DNA from: Octopus vulgaris
Taxonomy: Eukaryota
Direction of reading: 5' to 3'
Length of the DNA: 64,000 nucleotides
NCBI GenBank assembly: GCA_951406725.2
Contig: OX597817.1
Span: 6,448,001 to 6,512,000, forward strand
The stretch's first letter is position 1; the number at the start of each line of letters is the position of its first letter. A program made the translations under genes and the position numbers. Below the pieces are notes generated by a model, which saw nothing but the letters and a program-made list of their open reading frames with translations, was not told where the DNA came from and did not search any database. Shown piece by piece: positions 1,550 to 49,551 of the stretch.

Positions 1550-3012
1550 TTTATTGAAACCTGAATCTTGCATACGTAGCCGGCTTGCTACCTGCAGCCT
1601 ATGGTACCCAACTACCTGTTCTTTTCAAATACCTGACACTCTCCTGATGAATCTGGCCATGCCAAGGAGGCACGGATTTTGCAACACTTCTACAGAGCAC
1701 TCTTCCCACATCCTTTATATTCCCCTCTCATCACCACAACGGCACATTTTGAAAGTCATATCTACATCTTATTATCATTTGAAAAAGTCCACTCAGAGCA
1801 GATTAGACTCACCAATTCTGCCTTACATTTTGGGAAATTATTGAAACTTTCTTTTGCATTTCCCAGATCCTACCCCATATTTGTCTTCCGCAGTATTTTA
1901 GTGAAGTGAATCATTCGCAGCACTAAGAGCAGTGGGTATGCGCCGCCCCGCTGGAAGATCCTTGTCCTAATTTTCATTTCTCCTAACATCTGATTCCCAG
2001 CTGTCAATTCTGTTTTCCAACGTTTCATATCGTACCATATAAGCCGCCTCGTGTTTTTTGGTAATCCATACGTTTCCATATCTCTTGTTACTCACGAGTG
2101 TGTTATCATATGTGCTTTACCATGATCAATCCATGTCATGTTCACATATGTGTGCTTTCTCTTGCAGCTTCTGATAATTCGTACGTCAATTAATAGCTGA
2201 TCTTTCGTTCCTTGGCTATTCTTTCAACACCCTTTTCTGTTCAGTGTGTAACAGCTCACATTTTTCTAAATATCCATGCATTACCCAGGTCAAAACACTA
2301 GACAATAGTTTCCACTTTGGCAGAAGACACGGGCTCTTCCAAGTTGAAATTTAGACACATTATTACGCTTCTTAAAATAACAATATCTTCCTCTTATCTA
2401 ACATCTGAGTTCTCAGCCTTCTTGCAAATATCTATCTAACACTTCTGCTATCATTTCATGGAGCCCTCCTCACCCAGCTTCATCCAATAACGTGAAACAC
2501 AATCCGGCCCCGGTCTCTTCCAATTTGAAATTCTACTTATTTGTTCCCATGCAAAGCATTCTTTTAGTCTTTTCTCTGGTTTTTAACTTCGTTTTGGCTT
2601 TTTGGTTACCTTATACCTTGCTGTGACTCTAGTGGCTCTTAATGGACTTTCTTCACTGATACCTACATATGAGCCTATATCTACTCTAGCTAAACCCACG
2701 CAGCCTTCTACTGATATTGACTCTCTTTCAACTCCCTTTCTAGGTAAGTATAATCTTGCTACCCCTGCTCCTCCATCCATATTGATTTCCTTCCCTGTTC
2801 TTCTGTCAAGCCTTGCTAGTTCGGTTTTCGTCCCATTTTCAAAAACTACTGAGTATCTACGTAATGATATCGCCGTAATGCTTACTGCCTTCACTAGATT
2901 CGCACTTTGACATCATTAGCTTCCTTACACTTCTCATGTAATCCTTCTCAATTTTCGTTTCCATTTCTATAGTTAGCACTTTACCAGTTTTTAATACTCA
3001 TGGTTACTTATA
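1550..3012 (-). pseudogene. Decayed, rearranged reverse transcriptase (RT) region of an R4/Dong-like non-LTR retrotransposon
   Basis: Minus-strand translation gives NWKRPGPD, SPCLLPKWKLL, WKTELTAG..GEMKIRTRIFQRGGAYPLLLVL (GIFQGDSLSPLLF-like), SKCAVVVMRG and ELARLDRRT..RLYLPRKG..ISVEGCV. Many stops and frameshifts; the xMDD motif is deleted. Confidence 0.85.
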
Positions 3013-3295: not shown

Positions 3296-3916
3296 TAATT
3301 CTCTCTTTCTTTAAATGACTTTAACGACTAGCCATCCCGTAATTAGACGCTTTGATTTGCGTTGGTTGTACAACTGGACAATTAAACAAAAGATTTAATG
3401 GGCACAGATTCGACGTCAGGCACAATAACAATAGTTCGAAAGAACTTGCCGAAAATTTCATTTCAAACGGCTGCAATTTTGGAAACAGACTTGAAAGTGC
3501 ATATTCTCGGAATATATTCTGAATCTACTTCATTTTCACTTCCCAATAAGCATGAGGAGAAATATGTTTGCGAGTTATTAACATCACGCCCTGGAGGAAT
3601 GAATAAAATGACAGGAGAATATCAAATTTATACAAAACTGTTTGAATAAATGTTCATCTTTTTCCTTTCCTTTTTTCTTTCCTCTTTTTTTCTGTTTTTC
3701 TTTTTTTATTTCGCCTGTTATAAAATTGAAACTTAAAACTGATGATGTCATTCCATCAGCGTGTGGACGCTGGCTGCTCTTGTTCATACTTTAAATTTAA
3801 ATTTCTATGATTTTGAATTTTCATTACTTCTTACTTTGAACTCGACAGACTTACTGTCGAAATATCGTTCAACCAATAAAATATCTATTACAATCGAATC
3901 GCGCTCTTCGTGTTGA

Positions 3917-4083: not shown

Positions 4084-4215
4084 GGAGGCGGCAAGCTGGC
4101 ACAATCGTCATTACACTGGGCAAAATGCTTTGCGATATTTCGTCCACCTTTACGTTCTGAGTTCAAATTACACCGCGATCGACTTTGCCTTTGTTTTTGT
4201 TTTCGGGGTCGATAT
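4084..4215 (+). mobile_element. SINE family A, 5' half
   Basis: ggcggcaagctggcacaatcg...ctgagttcaaatt...cgactttgcctt...ttcggggtcgata aligns with 1138-1260. Confidence 0.8.
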
Positions 4216-20685: not shown

Positions 20686-22239
20686 ATATAGTTTATTAAA
20701 CTGATACTGGGCTTCGAATCTTCATGAGAAACGTTTAGATAACGGGCCTCAGACCCTCTTCTCAATGTACGACTATAAAAGGAGTAGGAAACGACAACGT
20801 TTAACATGATGCCGGAACATAGATGGCGAGGGAAGCTAGGCATGCATTTGAAATTGCCAGACGATAATTCCAGGTGTTTATATATATATTCGCGTTACAT
20901 ATACGCGGGACCTATGTAAACCAAATGTAAACACGTTCTCGTACACAACGTGTACTCAATAAAATAAATTGATAATTCAAGTTTATGTGAGTGATCGTCG
21001 GATAAAATGAATATTCAGCTCCGTGCACATTCCGTGCGACAGCATGCAGCATTATCCGAATCTATTTGAGCTTGTGCACAATGAATGCTGCTTTACATTT
21101 AGTAATGCTTAACAGGGGAATAGCTGAGAGAGATGTTAATAATTCATATAAAATCAGCATTGAAAATAAATACAGTAACATCAATGCAATCAATGGATAT
21201 CAGAACAAAAATTGTAGATGTTACTCGTGTCTGGTGTTTGATACCCAGTAGTATCATACTGTATCAAAAAATATCGCTTCCGAGAATACAAAAATTCGTC
21301 TATATAACAGAGTGGTTCAATCGGAAATTCACTATACCTATAACAATAGCTAACTATTTGACCTATAAAGCAACTCATGTGAATAACAATCAGCATTTAA
21401 GAAAAGCCTTTTGATGACTTACGCAAATAAAAAAGTTCATATTTACAATGTCTAAGGGGAATTATCAAAGCATTGCGTTTTAATGCCTAGTCGTATAATC
21501 CACGGTTTCTACTGGTTTGTTGTTGGTCGAAATAGGTAAAGTATAATTACAGTAGTCGCTCACATGAATTAGGCGCATGCAGGGAGAATTAAAGTATAGA
21601 ATAAATACTCCACGTAATGAAACAAGTATAATAAACCATATGACAGCACTTAAAGTTTTTAAAACATTGATGAGAATACATATTAAAAGTGACTAAATGC
21701 AACAAAAATATTGAACAATGATGCTTTGGATGAGTGTTAGTATTACAGAGAGCCGTCTTTCACAAGTAAGCCTAGCTTGGTAACATATACATTTGCTGTT
21801 ATTTCAAGTGCCTATAGAATCGAAATTCGTGCTCCTCTAGACCTCATAAACTTGAAATAATATAGGATCACCGTTATGACATGGTAGAAAAGTAGTCTTT
21901 CAGTACCTAGTGGGTTCTCTTTACAAATAAGAGACATAAATTTGAGATAATGTTCTTTGGTGAAAGACAAAAAAAAACATTCCTGGGTTTAGAAATTGCA
22001 TTCACAACTTTAATACCGTAACTACCACACCTCACAATTTTTTCTGCTCTAAAGTAATGGATTTAAAATGTATAAGATTAGAATCAATCGGTCTTCTCAA
22101 AATTATCTACATTTAATGACCCGCAAAAATGACCAAAGTACATGAAGCCGTCGCAAACATATATGAACAATATATTTGAATGTTTCCCACGATAGCGTTT
22201 TCTCATATGTAGACAACATCATCGTTCATATCTCCCTTA

Positions 22240-22960
22240 ACTATCGCACCCGAATATTATCCACATATGTTCTAGTCACTGCAGGCCAAACGTGTTCTGT
22301 GTCAATAAAGAGTGAACTTAGAAATATACTAAAACAAGATCATATCAATCTCCCTCAACAGCAATAAAATAAAACAAAATAAGATACTGATTATTTCAAT
22401 TGTCCACTGTTACACTTTAATGCCATTAAGCATATGCAAGATACTCTTGAAACACTCTTTATCACTTCAAATAATAGATCTCCCTGACTCTGAGTCGCTC
22501 GTGCGTAATTTAATTTCTTAACAGACTTCAATTACTTAAAATTCCTTAAAACACTGCATCTCAAAAACTGATATATTCTTTCAGAAAGAGAAACAATTCA
22601 GTTTCCATCTACTACAAGTCGTCTACTAACCTTCAGTGAAAGCGATAATTGAGCAGTGCACCCAAATGTTGCTGCTGTTACACATTTCAAGGCGTGTCTA
22701 CTGACTATCAGGAAATCACTAAAAAATACACACTAAACCGAAATACATAGCCTGCCTGTTCCCTCTTTTTTGCTATCACAACTATAGTGGTCTCTACTCA
22801 TTACATCCCTTGCACTGAAGCACTCTAAATGCACTCATATTTCTTCATTCATTAGGCATGCATACATTGCTGCATCTATTGCCCCAAGCCAAACACTATC
22901 CGCTGCATTCACTTGACGAGAACTTGTTAAAAATTGTAAGTGGAAATTTTCATTGATTTT
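22240..22960 (-). pseudogene. Possible L1/Tx1-like endonuclease remnant
   Basis: Minus strand NVCMPNE (NVYAPN-like) followed ~250 bp later by RWKLN (WKLNxSLL-like), in the expected order. Confidence 0.4.
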
Positions 22961-24799
22961 AGATAGATAGCGCCCTTCCTCTTGAGTAAGCTTTAAAGAT
23001 AAAACAAAATGAAATATTTCATCTACCTAAAACGTCATCGGTTGTCTGTAGGTAGCTTACAAACTATTTTCCCAAATAGTGTCCCGAACGACACCTGAAC
23101 ATTTACAAAAACAATTTCCTATACCATGGACGAAACAGCGAACCAGCTCTTTATCTAAATATTGGTAATAGATAATAAAAATATATTCCAAAATATTATT
23201 TCATTCACCGAGATTAATTACAAGGAAATCATTTTCATTGTCTTAGGTAATTGTCTTATCAAAGCGTGGTAATCTTGTTTAATTAATGAGGATGCTGGCA
23301 TTTCGCTAAAAGCTGGCAGAATGAGTAGTACTATAGAAATGTGTAGTACTGGAGAACAAGTAGTACTAGACTTAATTGAGATATCTAATGGGATATTGTA
23401 ACCCCAATTTCAAATGATACTTGTTTGTTAAACTAGAAGCTAAAAGTATGTTTCTGAGATATTCTGTTTGTGAATTTGCTCCGAATGATCGAACACTTTA
23501 GTTTGAACATAAAGAGGTTCTTTAGATTAGAACAATAAAAATAGAATAGAAATCGAGATCAAAGGATCATTTCAGCTAGAAATTTGGAATTCAAACTCAA
23601 GACGATAATAGAGTGGCTGGACGTTTATGCGTTCTAATATGCATCCATGGAAGTTATCAAAATAACGATGAATTATGAAGACTCTTGTTGGAAAGATCAA
23701 ATTTAAAACTCATTTCATTAGCAAGAATAATATATTACCATCAACAAATTTTGTCTTGCCTGTAGAGAATAAGACCTGTAGTCTGTAATATGAGAACTAT
23801 ACACCCGAAACACCGCATACTTCCTACTACTTGTGACACTCAACGACTGTGCAATCATAGAGAAAAGAAAATGATAGTCCATGGCTACTTAGGCATCAGA
23901 GTGCAATGTAAGAAGGTAGTTATTGATGCTTTCACTACGGTTGCAATTCCACGAAGAATAGCATGATTATAATAAAAGGGTTGTAAATCAATTATTTTCG
24001 CAGCACAACTTTCAGGTAATTCGTTTAGACTTAGAATAGCTGAAGTCTGAACATAAAACAGCAGCAAAAGTGGACATAACGACGACAGAGATATCAACCG
24101 CAATGAACTACAATAAAGCATGGGTTTACGTAGATAATACAGCAGCGACAGTGAGGTCACTTATAATGAGAGAGATAACAATTTCCTCTGATCTGAATTA
24201 ACAAATCCGATAGAATAAGAAAGAGAAACAGTATTCGCGATACATGAACACGCCATCATCACTCAATGTATTGAAAAGTATCTTCAGCATGCCTGTAAAA
24301 TAAATAAATGTTGGTGGTTTTCTGAAACCGTGTAAACAGGTTGTGTCGTGAACTTGCAAAACATCGAACAAATTAAACTCTAACGCATAATAATGTATCA
24401 AACCTGAATTAAATACGCCAATTTCAACGCATTGAAAGGAAAGGTTTCACGGCATTCATTGATTATAATAAACTAGATGTTAAAAATAAAAAAAAAGAAA
24501 CATTTATGGAATGGTGTCACCATTAAATTTATAACTACCAGAAGTTGTTGACTATCATTTAAGTAAATGGCAGTCAACAACTTCAGTAAACACATTGATG
24601 AATGTGTTTTATTTATGTTGATAAACATATGTAAATTCCAGAATATAACAATAGTCAGAACTGTAAGCATTGTTAGGCATTATCGTACATCCCTTGTCAA
24701 CTATGAACATTACTATGGGTATGATTGTACGATGAATAAATGGCAACTAATTCAGTAAATAAGGAAAAGATAGTGAATTGAATAACATAATTCCCCCTT

Positions 24800-25865
24800 T
24801 TCCCTTTTTATTGGAGACAATATTTTTATCGAACTTCCTTTTCCCATTTCCTTTTTACTCATAGCTAAAAGCTTCAACCAATCGAGTAAATCAGGCTGGA
24901 ATTGGATGACGGTAATAATTAGCAAGGGTATATAATGTGCACAACATATAAATACTTAAAGCAGATACATAAAAATATACACCGATTGTCCCAAAAATAG
25001 GAATTAGTTAAGACATTATCAACATGAGGCTGAGGGAATTAGCCAGAATAGACAGAAAAAAGAGCAAAGAATATAAAGGTAGGCTTTAGGAGAGACCACC
25101 TGTATATGATATAAAAATGTTAAATTTATATCTATTTAGGGAACACTTATAAAATAAGTACTATAGGAATGCAACAAATTCTAGTGACGAACATTTGAAA
25201 ATTTTGCATATAGCTATAGAATAACTAAAAATACATATATCTGTTTTCTGTCAATCAGAATATCAAATCCTACAAAACGCAATAGTTAGCGAATTGGGAT
25301 GAGAAACGAGAAACAAAAGAAATAGAAATCATTAAAATGGCTAACAATAGGGTTACGAAGTAGCTTGCTGAAACGATGGGAATAGATGCACGTGCATCAG
25401 TAAAGCATGCAAAAATGCTGAATAGAGTAAAATTGCAACACAGACTGGGAGTCGGGTGGAAATTCGAGATAGAAGGATCTTGTATTCGGTTCATTATGTC
25501 GCTTCATTGCAAACGAATGTTATGGATGAAAATATAATTACGTAACTTTAAAATACATGAAACGTGTGACAAATAGATTAACTACATTGTTTCTGGCTGC
25601 CCAGTATTAATCACAGGAGAATCCATGTCCTGAAGGACACATATATGGCTTCATCAGGAAATTAACACATATTAGGTGATATAAACATAAGTCGAACTAG
25701 TATGAGGCAATTACAATGTGACAAGACTCTGGGGCATACCAATGCCTTTAGAAAATATAGACAAGAATAACATGGATAACTAAGCAGAAATTATTTCCAA
25801 TATCCATCATGGAAGATTTAACTCTCAAAAGTATTGAGCTCAACAGAAGATATTGCATCACTAAA
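24800..25865 (+). pseudogene. Heavily decayed R4/Dong-like LINE 3' region
   Basis: INYIVSGCPVL at ~25577-25608 (HIVSGC zinc-knuckle-like) and NVTRLWG at ~25715 (NVTILWD-like). Confidence 0.5.
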
Positions 25866-25934
25866 AACTGGATCTCATCTGAACTTTTATAAAAACGGGG
25901 AAAGAGAAATCGTGATAATGAAAATGCATTAACA

Positions 25935-26093
25935 ATGATAATAATGGTTTCAAATTTTGCCAAACGGGCAGTAATTGTGATGTGGGGGGGGGATGAGATG
26001 ATTGCATCGATCCCAGTGTTTCATCCCTAACGGATGAAAGGTAAAGTCGACCTTGGCGGAATTTGAAATTAGAACGTAAGCATTTCGTCCAGC
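25935..26093 (-). mobile_element. SINE family A, internally deleted
   Basis: Reverse-complement of family A: ggtttcaaattttgcc...atcgatcccagtg...ggatgaaaggtaaagtcgaccttggcggaatttgaa... Confidence 0.75.
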
Positions 26094-26094
26094 G

Positions 26095-26173
26095 AATAAT
26101 AATAATAATTAATAACAACAACAACAACAATAGCAATGGTGATGATGATGATGACGACGACGACGACGACGAC

Positions 26174-26230
<57 letters not shown>
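26095..26230. repeat. Compound (AAT)(AAC)(GAT)(GAC)(GAT) microsatellite
   Basis: Read directly from the sequence. Confidence 0.97.
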
Positions 26231-26231
<1 letters not shown>

Positions 26232-26240
26232 GCGAAATAG

Positions 26241-26558
26241 AGAAGAGCGCCATAGATATCATGTGAAATTGGTTGAACGATATTTCGGCATTTAGCGTGC
26301 CTTCCACAGGTTCAAACATTAAATGTCAGTCTACTACAATTTCTTTTTTGTTAAGGTTATATAGGAGGACTGAGGTAACTCCTGCAGAAGTTATAGCGAA
26401 ATAGAGAAGGCACGCTATATGCCGAAATATCGTTGAACCAATTGCACATGATAACTATGGCACTCTTCTGGAGGAGTTACCTCAGTCCTATGTAATCTTA
26501 ACAAAGAGAAATTGAAGTAGACTCACATGTAAATTTTGAACCTGTGGAAGGCACGCTA
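26241..26558. mobile_element. Two inverted, circularly permuted ~141-145-bp monomers carrying a hammerhead motif
   Basis: 26241-26390 reads X-Y; 26406-26558 is the reverse-complement of Y-X. Each monomer is terminally redundant (agaag; gaaggcacgcta). Confidence 0.85.
26273..26315 (-). ncRNA. Minimal type I hammerhead motif (A6U core variant)
   Basis: Minus strand: ttgaac CTGTGGA a ggca cgctaaa tgcc GAAA ta TC gttcaa. 6-bp stem I, 4-bp stem II, palindromic ATAT in place of stem III. Confidence 0.65.
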
Positions 26559-26567
26559 GATAGAAAA

Positions 26568-26822
26568 ACAACTATCAAAGGCTTTCTTGTAGTCTATCCG
26601 TACCATACTCAAGTTCTTTTTGACCCGGCGATTCTCTACAATCATTTTACTTATGGATAATTGATCTTTGCACTCATATTAATTCCTTTTACAGCCTTTT
26701 TGAGCTTGTTGAAGGATTGACCTCTGTTCAAGGAAGACGTGTAGTCTATCTTGGCTGTGAGGATCTTGTAGGTGGTGTTGAGAAATGTTATTGGTCGGCT
26801 GTTGTTTGGATGTTTTGTGTCT
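26568..26822 (-). pseudogene. R4/Dong-like RT fragment (domains 1-3)
   Basis: DTKHPNNSRPITFLNTTYKILTA / RLHVFLEQRSILQQAQKGCKRN*YECKDQLSISKMIVEN..KKNLSMVRIDYKKAFDS. Confidence 0.9.
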
Positions 26823-26842
26823 TTATTGTTTGGTAGCTAGTA

Positions 26843-27644
<802 letters not shown>

Positions 27645-28791
27645 CGTACATAAGTATATCATTATTAACATGTTGCTCATTTTTATTGGTGATTCTTTTT
27701 CTATTGGTGGTGGAAATGGTATTTTCTTTACTGTTATAATTCTAATTATCCTTCACATTATTTTTGTTGTTGATGTCGTCGTTGTTGTTGTAGCTATTGT
27801 TCTTGCTGTTGTTGCTGCTGCTTCTCCATCTGTTCTTATTGCTATTTTCATTATTATAAATCAGTATTAATATTATTCTAATAATTCATGATTTACAACA
27901 ACAGCAATGAATTCGATAATTGAGGTAAATACGAAGGATAATAAATATGTATAAAAGAAAATAATACAAAATGATATTCACAAGAATAGCATCAACAGCA
28001 AAAGCAGCAGCAACTCAGCAAGGAAATATTACAACAGCAATAATGCAAGTAACAATTAGATGTTGGAGCTTTAACATATAAGTTTAATAGAATGAAAAAA
28101 AATTTATCCATTTTGCACATACTTGTAATACCTTTATCTCCTGGGGTTCGTTAATCAGCATTAAAATGTATTTTTGCAAAGAATGCGACTGTGAGTTTCC
28201 TATAAATTTCATGCTAAAATGAATAAGGAGTAAAAACAAAATATGTTATTCAGCTGAGTATAATATACACATTTTAAAAAGAAATAATATATTCATATTA
28301 ACGCTTTCAGATTATCTATTGTATGGCCCATCTCTTAATAATGTCCGGGAATTTACTGTGGTTCCACCTTTCCAACATACTTCATCGATATAGTTGCTGA
28401 TCAAAATTGCTGATATAATTTCTATTGTTATGATCCGAAGTTTTGAATAGTAAATATCATTGTTTGATACGATGTGAAAGATGGGGTAGCGACAGGTCCA
28501 GAATGATGTGTATGATTTTTAATGATGTTATCATGATTATTAGACAAATATATTATATATGACTGAATAGGCTTATGGAAAATGGATACTGAGAGGAATC
28601 TTTTATTTATTAATATCTCTTCGCATTTACCTGAAATAAAGAAGGGGATTGATGTACTGTGCTTGCTCGAAAATTTCATTTTTGTTTTGCGGTTTATGTT
28701 TTACACCATATTTTCAAAGATTCAAGATTTTTGTCTATAAAGTGCACATACGCACACACACACAGGCGTCACACACCACAAACACACACAA

Positions 28792-28835
<44 letters not shown>

Positions 28836-29323
28836 CAACACCGCATTTACTTCCACACATACACATACACACTCGCAGTCACAGACACAAAATGTCTTTG
28901 AGCATAGTCACGGTTGTCGCTCTCGAGAATTCCAATCAAATTTAAAAGTCGATTCAATGCTATGAATCATACACATTTGAAATACTATTCCGGGTTCTTA
29001 ATGTCATAATTCGTCTGAATCTTATAACGATAATCCTGCTCGTAATAAAACCTGTTTTATTTTGTGCTGAATTAATGTGCTGAATTTTCTGCTGAATTAA
29101 TTGTGTTGAATTCATCATCGTCATGGAACTGGTTACAAATTATATAGTGATAGATGGAATTACGATTTCTCAAATGAAACTGGGTAACAGTAATTTAAAT
29201 GTCTTTCACACAGCTGAGATAACTGAAAATGAAGATGCAGAGATACATGCAAGATATACTTATCATCTACGACAGATGTTCCCAACCACCGTGCCGTGGT
29301 CTGCAGGGCGTTTTTTGCTTTAA

Positions 29324-43111: not shown

Positions 43112-45242
43112 AAAATTCATAATACACTCACACTTACATTCACGCGTGCGCACATCCACCTGTTTATAGTACATTTCGGTATATATTTGTGAACTGTTGT
43201 GTATCAATATCCAATTGAACTTGCAAAATACACTGCAGTTGATGAAATAACCTTGGTGAAGAAACGTACTCAGAATGCAAACGATATAGATAGCATTTTA
43301 TGTTTATCATATGTATTTTTTCATAGTGCGTCCCTAGTACTCTATGTGATATCGTATTAGCGTGATAATTAAAATTCTGGAAGTATTTCATGTTTGACAT
43401 TAAGGACGGAGAAACATTTGCTGTTTGAGTTTTTCATTTTCTCTCCCATTCAGTTCTCTGATAAAAACACCCATCACATTGCATTCTCTGAATTGCGTTC
43501 GGGTTATCTTTTTGATATTATAGTCAATATATTCAGGATTTTATAATGGACTTGGAAATGTCAAAGATACCGATCATTCTAGCAATAAATCTTAATATAT
43601 TAATCACGATCCCCATGGAAAATGCTCGGCAAAAATTGTGTAAATATTTAATACACATGAGGCAACTTTATGAAAATAGTATTAAATCATGAAGAATAAT
43701 CATAACCAGAAAAATTGCTGGATCTCCAATCAGTTCGAAATGTATGCATAAAAACATTAATAAATTAATGGAAGCTCTGTTTTTTGGGATAGAATGTAAA
43801 GCCTAATATTATGAGCGCTTCCATATATAAATATATTAAATTTTTGTATATATATGCACACATAAATTCATATAGATACAAGATTGTCCGCTCAATGTGG
43901 GCGTTTTTCCCATTTATTTTAATGCCAAGTTTTTCAAGAATTTTGCCAAATCCCTCAACAAGTTATTCCGTTTCATTCTTCACGTATTGCCAAAGTTACA
44001 TTAATTTTTCACTGCTCAAAGAATTGATTTAGCTACCATTTTAGCACCACATCGTTACTTAACGAGATGCTCGAGCGATAATCTGAAGGCTTTACATCAG
44101 GAGGATATAGAGTGTGCAGTAGAACCTCCCAACGAAATGCTTGAAAAGCATTTTTGGTTAATTTCGCAATGTGGGAGCGAACGTTTTCATGTTGAAAAAA
44201 CATGCAACCACTCGAGTGTTCTGGAACTTATCCATCAAGTGATTGTGGCGGGTAATGATATTTTGGGAGCATTTCATCTGTTTGTACAATTTCCTAGTGG
44301 ATTAGCGTTCATTCATATGAATGAGATGGTTCAACTGATCCTCGTTAAACTGAACAGGTCGATCAGAACGTGGACTGCATTGGGTTCGAATGGCACTTAC
44401 AAGAAGCATGATATAACAGGTTTTGTGCAGCTCTACCAGTAATGTAAATTGATTTACAACTTTCCGCATGTTTATTTCAAAATGGCATATCAAGGAAAAT
44501 AAAAGGAAAGCAAATTTGTGTGTTTCTATTTTATGAGTTGAAAGCCAAGTTGCAGCAGAATAGAACATTGACCATTCAACTCTTGTCAAACATGCGCACC
44601 ATATTCAAATACAAAAAAGAAAAAGAGGGATAAGACACTATAAATGAGTGTAGCATGAAGAGAACGATAAAAATTACCCTCTTATGATTTGTGATTCCGC
44701 TATTCTTACGCAAATATTTCTTATGTCGTATTGCAGAAAGTAACGGAAAATGGATTCTATACAATGTATCATGATTTATGCTGAGACTGAGCCAAAGTAA
44801 TGCAATAATATAAAATATATTATGGTCATATATTTGATGGTCAGCAGGTGGAATTATGCTTTATTTCTTGAATTCTTACTAAACTGTCATAAGAGGAAAG
44901 AATTGTCACAAAAATGACACAATGGATCAAACAACTACAACGGTAACTTAAGGCTCTTGTGAATCATTCATGACAACATCCGTCCATATTTTTGAAAATG
45001 ACTATGTAAAGATTAAAGAAAGGAACCCTACAAAATTTCACATACACTCAGCCTATTTGGAAACTTATCTTCGAATAAATGACTGCTTGAATAATCGCAC
45101 AAACATCCTGCACACAAGAAGTCATAATCCATTTCGAGAAATCATTCCTTACAGGATTTCAGAATTCTCATCTACTGAAATAACTAGACTTATTTATTGT
45201 TGACAAAACTCTGCAGATTCTAATAGATATATTTTTGCCTAC

Positions 45243-47678: not shown

Positions 47679-48356
47679 TTTCTGCCCCACCCCGATTTGG
47701 ATGATCGTAACTTTCAGAAAAAAATGAATATTTCTTAATGAAATTTTCTACGAATATGTTATATCATATAGAGTTCAAATAAAGAAAATTTTTGTTAAAG
47801 TATTTTAGGAGGGGTGGAGGAGCATTTTCGGAAAATCCATCGGAGTCTACTTCAATTCGGCTAACTTTCAAGAAAATGGATATTTTTTGATGAAATTGTC
47901 TGCAAATATACCTCTGACTATGTAGATTCCGAACATGTATGAATTTTGGGGGAAAACAATAGGGAGTTATTTCGGGGGTGTTTCGGAACAAGTCGTCCAT
48001 ATTTGTTACATTTTCTGTTTTGTGCGTTTTGTGCATCCCTACATTTCGACTGACCCAAAAGGCAATGAAGGCAAATGAAGCCCTCACCAGAAAACTCGTT
48101 ATGCTAAAAGTTACATCTAATGGTCTGGTACACAGATATTTTTATTAAGACGACTTATTTGTTGCATACGATATTTTCTTTCACTTTAAATAAATTCCCA
48201 CGTAAACGGTTCTAAAAGAAAGGCAGAAGACACCAAAAGGAAAAATAAGGAATATACACGCACAGTTAATTATAGAAGCGTAAAGAATAATTTGTGACAT
48301 ACTCTCTATAATAAACATGGTATTGAATGGAATAATTCCCCGTTTGAACTTTCTTC

Positions 48357-48879: not shown

Positions 48880-49551
48880 TGTGGTGTGATGGTAACAACT
48901 GTCAATGATCTCATAATGCATGTGCTCCCAAACATCGCAGAAAACTTTAGCAACAGTCAATGGCTGCGTGAACGAGCCATCTTAGCTCCACGTAATGACG
49001 CTGTCGACAAAATCAACTGCTATCTCTTGCAGCTGTTGTCAACAAAAGAACAGTCTTTCAAATCCCTCAACACTGTCATTGAGAAGGACCAGGCAGTAGT
49101 TTTTCCATCTGAGTTCCTGAACTATCTGCAGCCACCTGGGATACTAACTCACCACTTAACACTTCAAAAGGGGACCCCAATCATGCTGCACGGGAATCCG
49201 AATCCACCTCCTCTGTGCAATAGCACCTGACTGGTGGTGAAAGCGATGCGACCCCATGTCCTAGAAGCAACAATTATGACAGGGAACTATAGGGCTGAGG
49301 ATGTCTCCATTCCACGAATCCTGTTAATCTCCTATGACTTTTCCTTTGAATTTAAATGGTTCCCGTCCCCAGTGAAATTAAGTTTCGCTATGTCAATAAA
49401 CTAGTTTCAAGGACAGTCTTAACCTAGCTTCTTTCATGGGCAATTATATGTTGGATGTTAGCGTGTTGTAAATCCCCCAAATCTTTTCCTCTATACACCA
49501 ATTAAAGGACACACTCAAAACGTCGTATATTTAGAAGCTCTAGATAATTAA
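48880..49551 (+). pseudogene. Helitron PIF1-like helicase C-terminus, pseudogenised
   Basis: WLRERAILAPRNDAVDKIN...FPSEFLNYLQPPG..HHLTLQKGTPIML..NP..LCNST*LVV...IPRI...PVKLSFAMSIN*FQGQS...HGQLYVGC*RV...TQNVVYLEAL, with stops and deletions. Confidence 0.95.

What the first reader, a model, noticed from the sequence alone, without database searches (positions are those of the whole stretch)
26241..26558. Two circularly permuted, oppositely oriented monomers of a ~141-145-nt hammerhead unit
Seen: the arrangement is X-Y then X'-Y', interleaved rather than a simple palindrome. Copy 1 (26241-26390) begins and ends with agaag and holds an intact minus-strand HHR fold. Copy 2 (26406-26558) begins and ends with gaaggcacgcta, and its HHR is split: the 3' half is at the start and the 5' half at the end, so it re-forms only on a circle or in a tandem. 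Both copies are preceded by the same gcgaaatagagaag. Inference: one unit length plus short terminal redundancy, opened at two different points, is what reverse transcription of a small circular RNA or a tandem pLTR would leave.
Basis: partly seen in the sequence, partly recalled or inferred. Interest (0 to 1): 0.8.

Follow-up and report, generated by a model that had tools for sequence, protein, structure and literature searches.

The report
Head-to-head pair of hammerhead retrozyme units
Two worn, head-to-head copies of a common 164-base genomic repeat carry a predicted minimal hammerhead ribozyme and were likely left by one Penelope-type retrotransposon insertion, which makes this likely a new member of the known animal 'retrozyme' repeats and not a new kind of system.

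Summary
The permuted, oppositely oriented pair is real: contigs from other runs span the central junction. The boundaries need correcting. The shared 'gcgaaatagagaag' belongs to the repeat. Copy 1 is 26232-26409 (164-nt unit + 14 nt). Copy 2 is 26406-26561 (141 + 15 nt) and lacks a 19-nt segment that lies between CTTCT repeats. The arms meet head-to-head over a 4-nt GAAG overlap and differ at 14 of 141 sites. The hammerhead fits the Penelope-type minimal consensus except for U at core position 6; copy 2's re-formed motif has a broken helix I. The unit is a multicopy family with head-to-tail joints. The only metagenome match to the motif lies in the 3' UTR of an RT + GIY-YIG Penelope-like element. 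Best reading: a decayed non-LTR retrozyme inserted once with the known Penelope 5' inversion. More-than-unit length needs a circular or tandem template; DNA cannot tell which, and one fold-back explains the permutation without two openings of a circle. Circular RNA and self-cleavage are untested. New member of a known kind; interest 0.35.

The parts
26232..26409 (-). Copy 1: 164-nt unit plus 14-nt terminal redundancy; sense is the minus strand; its 3' end abuts a trinucleotide microsatellite
   Evidence: (D5)
26273..26315 (-). Predicted minimal type I hammerhead: helix I 6 bp, core CUGUGGA (C3 26309, U6 26306), extra A before helix II, helix II GGCA/UGCC, GAAA-UA-UC with palindromic AUAU, predicted cleavage after C17 at 26279
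   Evidence: consensus compared with the PMC4209133 supplement
26391..26409 (-). 19-nt spacer segment of the unit, bounded by CTTCT repeats; present in copy 1 and in family contigs, absent from copy 2
   Evidence: tables 5c, 7
26406..26409 (.). 4-nt GAAG overlap at the head-to-head inversion junction; an overlap of 4 or more arises in 2.0% of all breakpoint pairs
26406..26561 (+). Copy 2: 141-nt unit plus 15-nt redundancy; hammerhead split (3' half 26406-26438, 5' half 26536-26561); helix I mismatch at 26435
   Evidence: (D6)
26571..26845 (-). Broken fragment of a LINE reverse transcriptase (ends at ...IDYKKAFDS), itself multicopy, abutting copy 2 after a 9-nt A-rich gap; R4/Dong-like by recall only; the right-hand end is approximate
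26095..26231 (.). Left compound microsatellite (AAT, AAC, GAC, GAT) next to the 3' end of copy 1
26846..26952 (.). Right microsatellite (GTT, ATT), in the opposite orientation to the left one
3835..3909 (+). Related remnant: same helix I strands and GAAAUAUC, different helix II (GACAG/CUGUC), core lost; ends 7 nt before a microsatellite
   Evidence: (score 68 against a maximum of 50 in 500 shuffles)

Best explanation
This is a head-to-head pair of copies of a multicopy 164-nt non-coding repeat with a predicted minimal hammerhead, likely a decayed non-LTR retrozyme inserted in one event by a Penelope-like element's enzymes. SHOWN: the unit, the permutation, the 4-nt overlap at the junction, head-to-tail joints elsewhere in the family, and a microsatellite at copy 1's 3' end. 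INFERRED steps: (1) an RNA holding more than one unit (a tandem transcript, or a circle made from it) was primed at a nick in or beside a microsatellite; (2) reverse transcription ran past one unit length; (3) the cDNA end folded back, or met a second cDNA, over GAAG/CTTC about 60 nt away (26406 to 26465), giving the inverted arm; (4) the arms then decayed independently by about 5% each, and copy 2 lost the 19-nt spacer between CTTCT repeats and came to end at a LINE fragment. The locus is predicted to be dead as a ribozyme, because a read-through transcript folds into one long hairpin that pairs the 5' half of the hammerhead.
For: Family: 476, 456, 388 and 314 contigs laid in 4 of 4 runs; summed depth over the hammerhead 25,000-29,000 in X1 against 43-49 for the locus-specific contigs (order of magnitude only, not a copy number). 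Tandem: go-back joints 26335->26249 (X1) and 26316->26242 (X1, X2); spacer-like letters between units in X2 26349->26241, X2 26366->26239, X1 26403->26257 and X1 26307->26465, and in loose ends at 26256 in X2 and X5 (15 of 41 joints shown). Penelope link: the single match of the motif pattern in the metagenome collection lies 144 nt behind the stop of an RT + GIY-YIG frame, on the same strand. The motif fits the min-HHR consensus of PMC4209133 except at A6. Inversion: inverted 5'-truncated copies next to the 5' end are typical of PLEs (PMC8557442), and head-to-head is the most frequent arrangement (PMC3846280). Common origin: of 14 substitutions between the arms, 4 are private to copy 1, 3 to copy 2 and 1 differs in both against the family majority; at one further site (26339/26512) both arms share a letter against the majority. 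Microsatellite: 2 of 2 assessable 3' ends in the window lie within 7 nt of a tract, against 0.2% of positions. Hairpin -146 kcal/mol, z -14.8.
Against: No target-site duplication was found, and the two flanking microsatellites are in opposite orientations, so one clean insertion site cannot be shown. The arms are 10% apart, like unrelated family members (most laid contigs are under 95% alike); 6 of 14 differences could not be polarised (40 of 156 rows shown). A spacer-less joint 26241->26467 in X2 and X3, and a second version of the copy 2 + LINE junction 7-8% diverged (X2 record 9, X3 record 19), suggest that the 141-nt form may be a separate subfamily and not a later deletion. The unit circles are not better folded than shuffles (z -1.3 and +1.1), unlike described retrozyme circles. 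U6 departs from the core; the related A6C change strongly lowers cleavage in Mg2+ (PMC7151607). No PLE protein remnant is in the window, and outside the hammerhead L001 is unrelated to the unit (230 of 500 shuffles score as well). The search pattern was built from the window's motif, so the letters shared with L001 are not independent; only their position in a PLE is.
Confidence: 0.6

Rival explanations
1. Two separate cDNAs, each copied from a monomeric circular RNA (one 164-nt, one 141-nt), were opened at different points and each ran about 15 nt past the start; they joined or inserted next to each other.
For: Both arms are one unit plus 14-15 nt. A spacer-less joint exists in contigs of X2 and X3, and a diverged second version of copy 2 also lacks the spacer. 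No place where many contigs begin or end was found (table 6; contigs are poor evidence for ends). The model is proposed in PMC4209133 and PMC7229834.
Against: Copy 2's 3' end abuts a LINE fragment truncated at both ends, with no continuation on the left, so its length may be secondary. The arms share one non-majority letter. U6 makes self-cleavage doubtful, and cleavage was not needed for PLE insertion in vitro (PMC11167929).
Confidence: 0.18
2. The arms are 5'-truncated pLTR remnants of an autonomous Penelope-like element whose 3' region contains a 164-nt internal tandem; there is no independent retrozyme.
For: Depth over the hammerhead part is about ten times that over the middle of the unit, and 12-14 contigs per run (X1, X5) leave the unit just upstream of the hammerhead into unlike AT-rich sequence. 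Opposite-strand min-HHR pairs 100-700 bp apart are described as probably related to truncated PLEs (PMC4209133).
Against: Go-back joints imply a short period; no RT or GIY-YIG remnant lies in the window. The uneven depth can also come from sister families that share the hammerhead.
Confidence: 0.13
3. A short tandem satellite of this unit sat here and a DNA-level repair event (fold-back or template switch) inverted part of it and deleted the rest; retrotransposition did not make the inversion.
For: No target-site duplication, opposed microsatellites and a doubly truncated LINE neighbour all point to local rearrangement. Satellite-like growth of pLTRs is discussed in 10.64898/2026.07.22.740005.
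Against: The layout matches the usual PLE 5' inversion, and a second, unlinked relative also ends at a microsatellite.
Confidence: 0.08
4. Assembly artefact.
For: PLE inversions are known to disturb assemblies (PMC8557442); no listed contig spans the whole stretch.
Against: The arms differ by 10%, and contigs from runs with three different organism codes span the central or the right junction with 0-5 differences.
Confidence: 0.01

Closest known systems
Metazoan non-LTR retrozymes (Cervera and de la Pena 2020, PMC7229834; Li, Clavereau and Pollet 2026, 10.64898/2026.07.22.740005)
   Same: Short non-coding AT-rich unit (38-39% GC) with one type I hammerhead, head-to-tail repeats, many copies; 164 nt is inside the published ranges (150-450 bp; 51-972 bp).
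   Different: The hammerhead is of the minimal PLE type with U at position 6; the predicted circle is not highly self-paired; expression and cleavage are untested; here the copies are inverted, permuted 1.1-mers. In the parts I read, neither paper describes a cephalopod family or this layout.
Penelope-like element pLTRs with minimal hammerheads (Cervera and de la Pena 2014, PMC4209133; Craig et al. 2021, PMC8557442; Arkhipova et al. 2013, PMC3846280)
   Same: U-rich 5' flank, extra nucleotide between 9 and 10.1, G10.1-C11.1, palindromic 15.2-16.2 (U-A); head-to-head inverted 5'-truncated copy; microhomology at junctions and deletions; microsatellite neighbours.
   Different: No RT or GIY-YIG frame at the locus; helix I is 6 bp and helix II 4 bp (canonical sizes); the arms are out of register and not a palindrome at the junction; A6 is present in all 44 rows of the published alignment that I saw (its descriptor required it).
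L001, a Penelope-like element in metagenome contig Ga0210369_1063332 (Neptune- or Nematis-like by its CxxxCxxC linker; clade not tested by a tree)
   Same: Same hammerhead architecture: AAC-CUG-NN-GA-A-GGCA...UGCC-GAAA-UA-UC-GUU, on the sense strand in the 3' UTR.
   Different: It has A6 and a longer helix II, carries RT and GIY-YIG, and shows no similarity to the unit outside the hammerhead; it is not the partner element.

Membership tests
non-LTR retrozyme | Short head-to-tail repeats of about 150-450 bp, in many copies | tested here: met
   Period 164 with terminal redundancy; go-back joints and spacer letters in contigs of X1, X2 and X5; 314-476 contigs per run. Array lengths unknown.
non-LTR retrozyme | Type I hammerhead with the conserved core in each unit | tested here: inconclusive
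   Fold and all core positions but one are present in copy 1; position 6 is U in both copies. 26306 and 26545 are not among the 40 of 156 difference rows shown, so U6 is probably the family state, but this was not seen directly.
non-LTR retrozyme | No coding capacity; GC under 50% | tested here: met
   Longest stop-free stretch 39-49 aa in tripled units; GC 38-39%.
non-LTR retrozyme | Monomer circle predicted to be highly self-paired | tested here: not met
   Circular fold z -1.3 (25 of 200 shuffles as good) and +1.1 (175 of 200). These are decayed copies; the ancestral unit was not folded. A reported property rather than the core definition.
non-LTR retrozyme | Transcribed, self-cleaved and accumulated as circular RNA | not testable with these tools
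   Needs small-RNA or total-RNA reads and a cleavage assay.
non-LTR retrozyme | Target-site duplication longer than 4 bp, when present | tested here: inconclusive
   No shared word of 5 nt or more in 41-nt flanks for either candidate right end; microsatellite flanks obscure TSDs (PMC8557442).
autonomous Penelope-like element | Single frame with RT and GIY-YIG endonuclease next to the pLTR | tested here: not met
   tblastn of the L001 PLE protein against the whole window gave no hit at E<=1; no such frame among 48 ORFs of 110 aa or more.
PLE-type insertion (works like) | Minimal hammerhead consensus CUGANGAH ... GAAAN palindrome NU H | tested here: inconclusive
   Met at every position except A6.
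PLE-type insertion (works like) | Inverted 5'-truncated copy head-to-head at the 5' end | tested here: met
   Both 3' ends point outward; 4-nt overlap.
PLE-type insertion (works like) | Bias for microsatellite or AT-rich targets | tested here: met
   2 of 2 assessable 3' ends lie within 7 nt of a trinucleotide tract; 13 tracts in the window, 0.2% expectation each. Only two cases.
PLE-type insertion (works like) | 30-40 bp tail at one end | not tested
   Needs the family's boundaries from a whole genome.

The most novel reading that the evidence does not exclude
A cephalopod retrozyme family with an undescribed U6 hammerhead core whose dispersed copies are permuted monomers of exactly one unit plus about 15 nt, carrying Penelope-type inversions and microsatellite-anchored ends. 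That would be the genomic footprint of a Penelope reverse transcriptase going once round a roughly 160-nt circular RNA in trans, occasionally taking neighbouring DNA (the LINE fragment) with it. It would be direct structural evidence for the so far only proposed retrozyme life cycle.
Probability: 0.18. Interest if true: 0.65.

Novelty: new member of a known kind. Interest (0 to 1): 0.35.

Why it matters
How animal retrozymes move is open: one view has Penelope enzymes reverse-transcribing circular RNAs into new sites (PMC7229834), another lets pLTRs grow locally into satellites (10.64898/2026.07.22.740005). A family of several hundred copy-equivalents (rough) with readable ends, inversions and microsatellite anchors would let the two be told apart from one assembly. 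The U6 core adds a cheap test of whether such hammerheads need to cleave at all. The single locus is a decayed copy with no sign of function.

Tried and rejected
No whole genome was held for the window, so no genome-wide map of ends. Rfam: 0 hits at gathering score in 64 kb, and only chance hits (none a hammerhead) among 17 at E<=10. Sequencing runs: no RNA holder listed among 24 runs; this says nothing about expression. Motif patterns found 0 matches in viral contigs and prokaryote genomes. Earlier findings of the scan: nothing in three look-ups. Pfam found no family for the 58-aa LINE piece; its identity rests on two homologues at 52-53%, one with RVT_1. Rejected: 'gcgaaatagagaag' as a target-site duplication or shared target (family contigs carry it between units); 'agaag' as terminal redundancy; insertion into the middle of the LINE (no continuation within 22000-28500); weak hits at 47789-47857 (not collinear); a long loose hammerhead-like hit at 48090 that the stricter descriptor did not return. 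Exact twin priming on one RNA fits poorly: by reading the unit, the arms' ends leave a gap of about 44 or 90 nt. Host identity: a Helitron remnant gave its highest identity (62%) to an Octopus bimaculoides protein but its best score to a crab protein, which is weak.

Full report
SETTING. The window is AT-rich, microsatellite-rich eukaryotic DNA without long genuine reading frames. It looks like an octopus genome; that rests on recalled SINE and microsatellite patterns and on a weak protein hint, not on a test. No whole genome was available.

OBSERVATION. Copy 2 (+) aligns to doubled copy 1 (-) at 88% over 160 nt, so the two are permuted, oppositely oriented copies of one unit. Comparing the window with itself at period 164 gives 14 of 14 matches at 26232-26245 against 26396-26409 (16 of 17 from 26229); copy 2 matches itself at period 141 over 14 of 15 bases, to 26561. 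Laying contigs of four public runs on 26215-26850 showed that other family members carry a variant of the 'gcgaaatagagaag' segment between one unit and the next: X2 26349->26241, X2 26366->26239, X1 26403->26257, X1 26307->26465, and loose ends at 26256 in X2 and X5 (15 of 41 joints, 12 of 13 between-letter rows and 24 of 479 loose ends were shown). The segment is therefore part of the unit. Copy 1 is 164 + 14 nt. Copy 2 is 141 + 15 nt and lacks 19 nt bounded by CTTCT repeats, plus gaps of 3 and 1 nt. The arms overlap by GAAG at 26406-26409; an overlap of 4 or more occurs in 2.0% of all possible breakpoint pairs. Both 3' ends point outward.

REALITY OF THE LOCUS. X1 record 2 and X3 record 18 span the central junction with 3 and 4 differences; X1 record 3 and X5 record 27 span copy 2 into the right flank with 0 and 5 (32 of 1718 pieces shown). 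These runs carry three different organism codes; X1 may be the source of the window and is not independent. None of the shown pieces bridges the left microsatellite junction.

THE HAMMERHEAD. Copy 1 reads, on the minus strand, helix I (6 bp), CUGUGGA, an extra A, helix II GGCA/UGCC, GAAA, U-A, U, C17 (26279). A descriptor free at positions 6 and 7 gave this single hit in the window and none in 60 shuffles; it was relaxed after I saw the motif. The motif matches the published minimal consensus at every position but A6 (PMC4209133 supplement, where all 44 rows seen have A6, as its descriptor demanded). Such motifs are thought to work as dimers and cleave poorly in vitro. The natural A6C variant cleaves badly in Mg2+ but well in Mn2+ (PMC7151607); a search for 'A6U' with 'hammerhead' and 'catalytic core' returned 0 papers. 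U6 is in both copies and is not among the shown family differences (40 of 156 rows), so it is probably the family state. Copy 2's re-formed motif has a G-G mismatch in helix I and fails the descriptor. Rfam does not detect either.

THE FAMILY. 476, 456, 388 and 314 contigs were laid at 80% likeness (these include contigs on the LINE flank). Summed depth over the hammerhead's 3' half is 25,000-29,000 in X1, against 43-49 for locus-specific contigs, and about tenfold lower over the middle of the unit. The tool warns that this is no copy number; I read it only as hundreds of copy-equivalents for the hammerhead part and fewer for the full unit. Go-back joints (26335->26249 in a 334-nt X1 contig; 26316->26242 in X1 and X2) show head-to-tail units; no go-back row was shown for X3. 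A related remnant at 3835-3909 keeps helix I and GAAAUAUC with another helix II and has lost the core (score 68, best of 500 shuffles 50). It and copy 1 both end within 7 nt of a trinucleotide tract, against 0.2% of positions.

LINK TO PENELOPE. A pattern built from the motif had one match in the metagenome collection. It lies 144 nt behind the stop of a frame with RVT_1 (E 2e-8) and GIY-YIG (E 3e-6), on the same strand: a PLE 3' UTR. The shared letters were asked for, the position was not. Outside the hammerhead there is no similarity, so this shows the type of motif, not the partner. No PLE protein remnant lies in the window. Papers on Octopus vulgaris report 31 recently active Penelope-like families and do not use the word ribozyme in the main text (PMC13282606).

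RIGHT FLANK. 26571 to about 26845 is a broken LINE RT fragment on the minus strand (52-53% to two proteins) with no continuation nearby. X2 record 9 (28 differences in 361, no gaps) and X3 record 19 (19 in 262) carry the same copy 2 + LINE junction, 7-8% diverged; positions of the differing letters indicate that record 9 has the family-majority state at 26492, 26524 and 26533. This is a paralogue or a deep allele and is unexplained. If a paralogue, the composite may have moved as one piece; pLTRs are reported to mobilise unrelated sequence in trans (PMC3846280).

MECHANISM. Head-to-head inverted, 5'-truncated copies are a standard PLE footprint (PMC8557442; PMC3846280), and a PLE protein nicks and extends both strands, starts inside its RNA and does not need hammerhead cleavage in vitro (PMC11167929). 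I infer one insertion of a more-than-unit cDNA, with fold-back or annealing over GAAG/CTTC about 60 nt apart, then decay. The arms differ at 14 of 141 sites (JC 0.107); of 8 sites that could be polarised, 4 are private to copy 1, 3 to copy 2 and 1 differs in both; one more site is shared against the majority. If the host is Octopus and the arms began identical, about 0.05 per arm is roughly 15 million years on the scale of PMC13282606 (inference). On a periodic template one fold-back puts the arms out of register, so the permutation needs no second opening of a circle. A circular or tandem template is still required, and the two cannot be told apart in DNA. Against the single event: no target-site duplication, opposed flanking microsatellites, 10% divergence, and a possibly spacer-less joint in X2 and X3. 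For the bolder circle model: both arms are one unit plus 14-15 nt. A transcript through the locus folds into one hairpin (-146 kcal/mol, z -14.8) that pairs the hammerhead's 5' half, so this copy is predicted to be inactive.

COMPARISON AND NOVELTY. It works like a PLE-mobilised non-LTR retrozyme. As a member: tandem period, non-coding and low GC are met; the core is one base off; the self-paired circle is not met in these decayed copies; expression and cleavage could not be tested. It is not an autonomous PLE. The circle-template idea is already in print as a hypothesis. I found no description of a cephalopod retrozyme or of this family in searches for hammerhead + retrozyme + metazoan, hammerhead + Penelope + pLTR + inverted (12), hammerhead ribozyme + octopus (22; 5 papers), Penelope + octopus + cephalopod + transposable (41), Penelope + twin priming (56), hammerhead + permuted (59) and Penelope + Neptune + microsatellite (60); repeat libraries such as Repbase and Dfam could not be searched, so the repeat may already be catalogued.

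WHAT I READ. 10.64898/2026.07.22.740005: parts 1-3 of 5 (introduction to discussion), supplements not seen; only 4 of its 35 genomes are invertebrate, none a mollusc by the text. PMC7229834: parts 2-4 of 6, supplement not read; its species figures may bear on novelty. PMC4209133: parts 1-2 of 4, supplement file 2 part 2 of 3 and a term search; file 1 could not be searched. PMC11167929: parts 1-2 of 4. PMC8557442: passages and a five-term supplement search (no match to the motif; Octopus appears only with Naiad elements in the rows shown). PMC13282606, PMC7151607, PMC7761336, PMC3846280: passages only. All others: search listing only. The labels R4/Dong, Neptune/Nematis for L001, and the SINE identity are recalled or read off a motif and were not tested.

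VERDICT. Observation partly confirmed, with corrected boundaries; interpretation partly supported. New member of a known kind, interest 0.35; most novel reading probability 0.18, interest 0.65 if true.

Noticed in passing
window 3835-3909 (+): Related hammerhead remnant with a different helix II and no core, ending beside an ACC/ATC/ATT microsatellite.
   Followed up: partly
window 26406-26774; X2 record 9 and X3 record 19: A second version of the copy 2 + LINE junction, 7-8% diverged: paralogue or deep allele.
   Followed up: partly
window about 26020-26095 and about 4085-4215: Fragments of the same SINE-like repeat lie beyond the microsatellite next to both hammerhead elements, in the same orientation relative to the hammerhead (alignment score 62, no shuffle control).
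   Followed up: partly
window 1900-2534 (-): Another decayed LINE RT remnant related to the one at 26571-26845 at the protein level.
   Followed up: no
window 48883-49227 (+): Helitron PIF1-type helicase remnant.
   Followed up: partly
window 44005-44442 (minus strand): Looks like a Tc1/mariner transposase remnant, judged by eye from the ORF list; not tested.
   Followed up: no
L001 1-1788: Partial Penelope-like element (RT, CxxxCxxC linker, GIY-YIG, one in-frame stop) with a minimal hammerhead at 1735-1777 in a metagenome contig.
   Followed up: partly
window 26274 and 26316, loose ends: Many family contigs diverge just downstream (into a T-run on the sense strand) or just upstream of the hammerhead, pointing to sister families that share the motif.
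   Followed up: no
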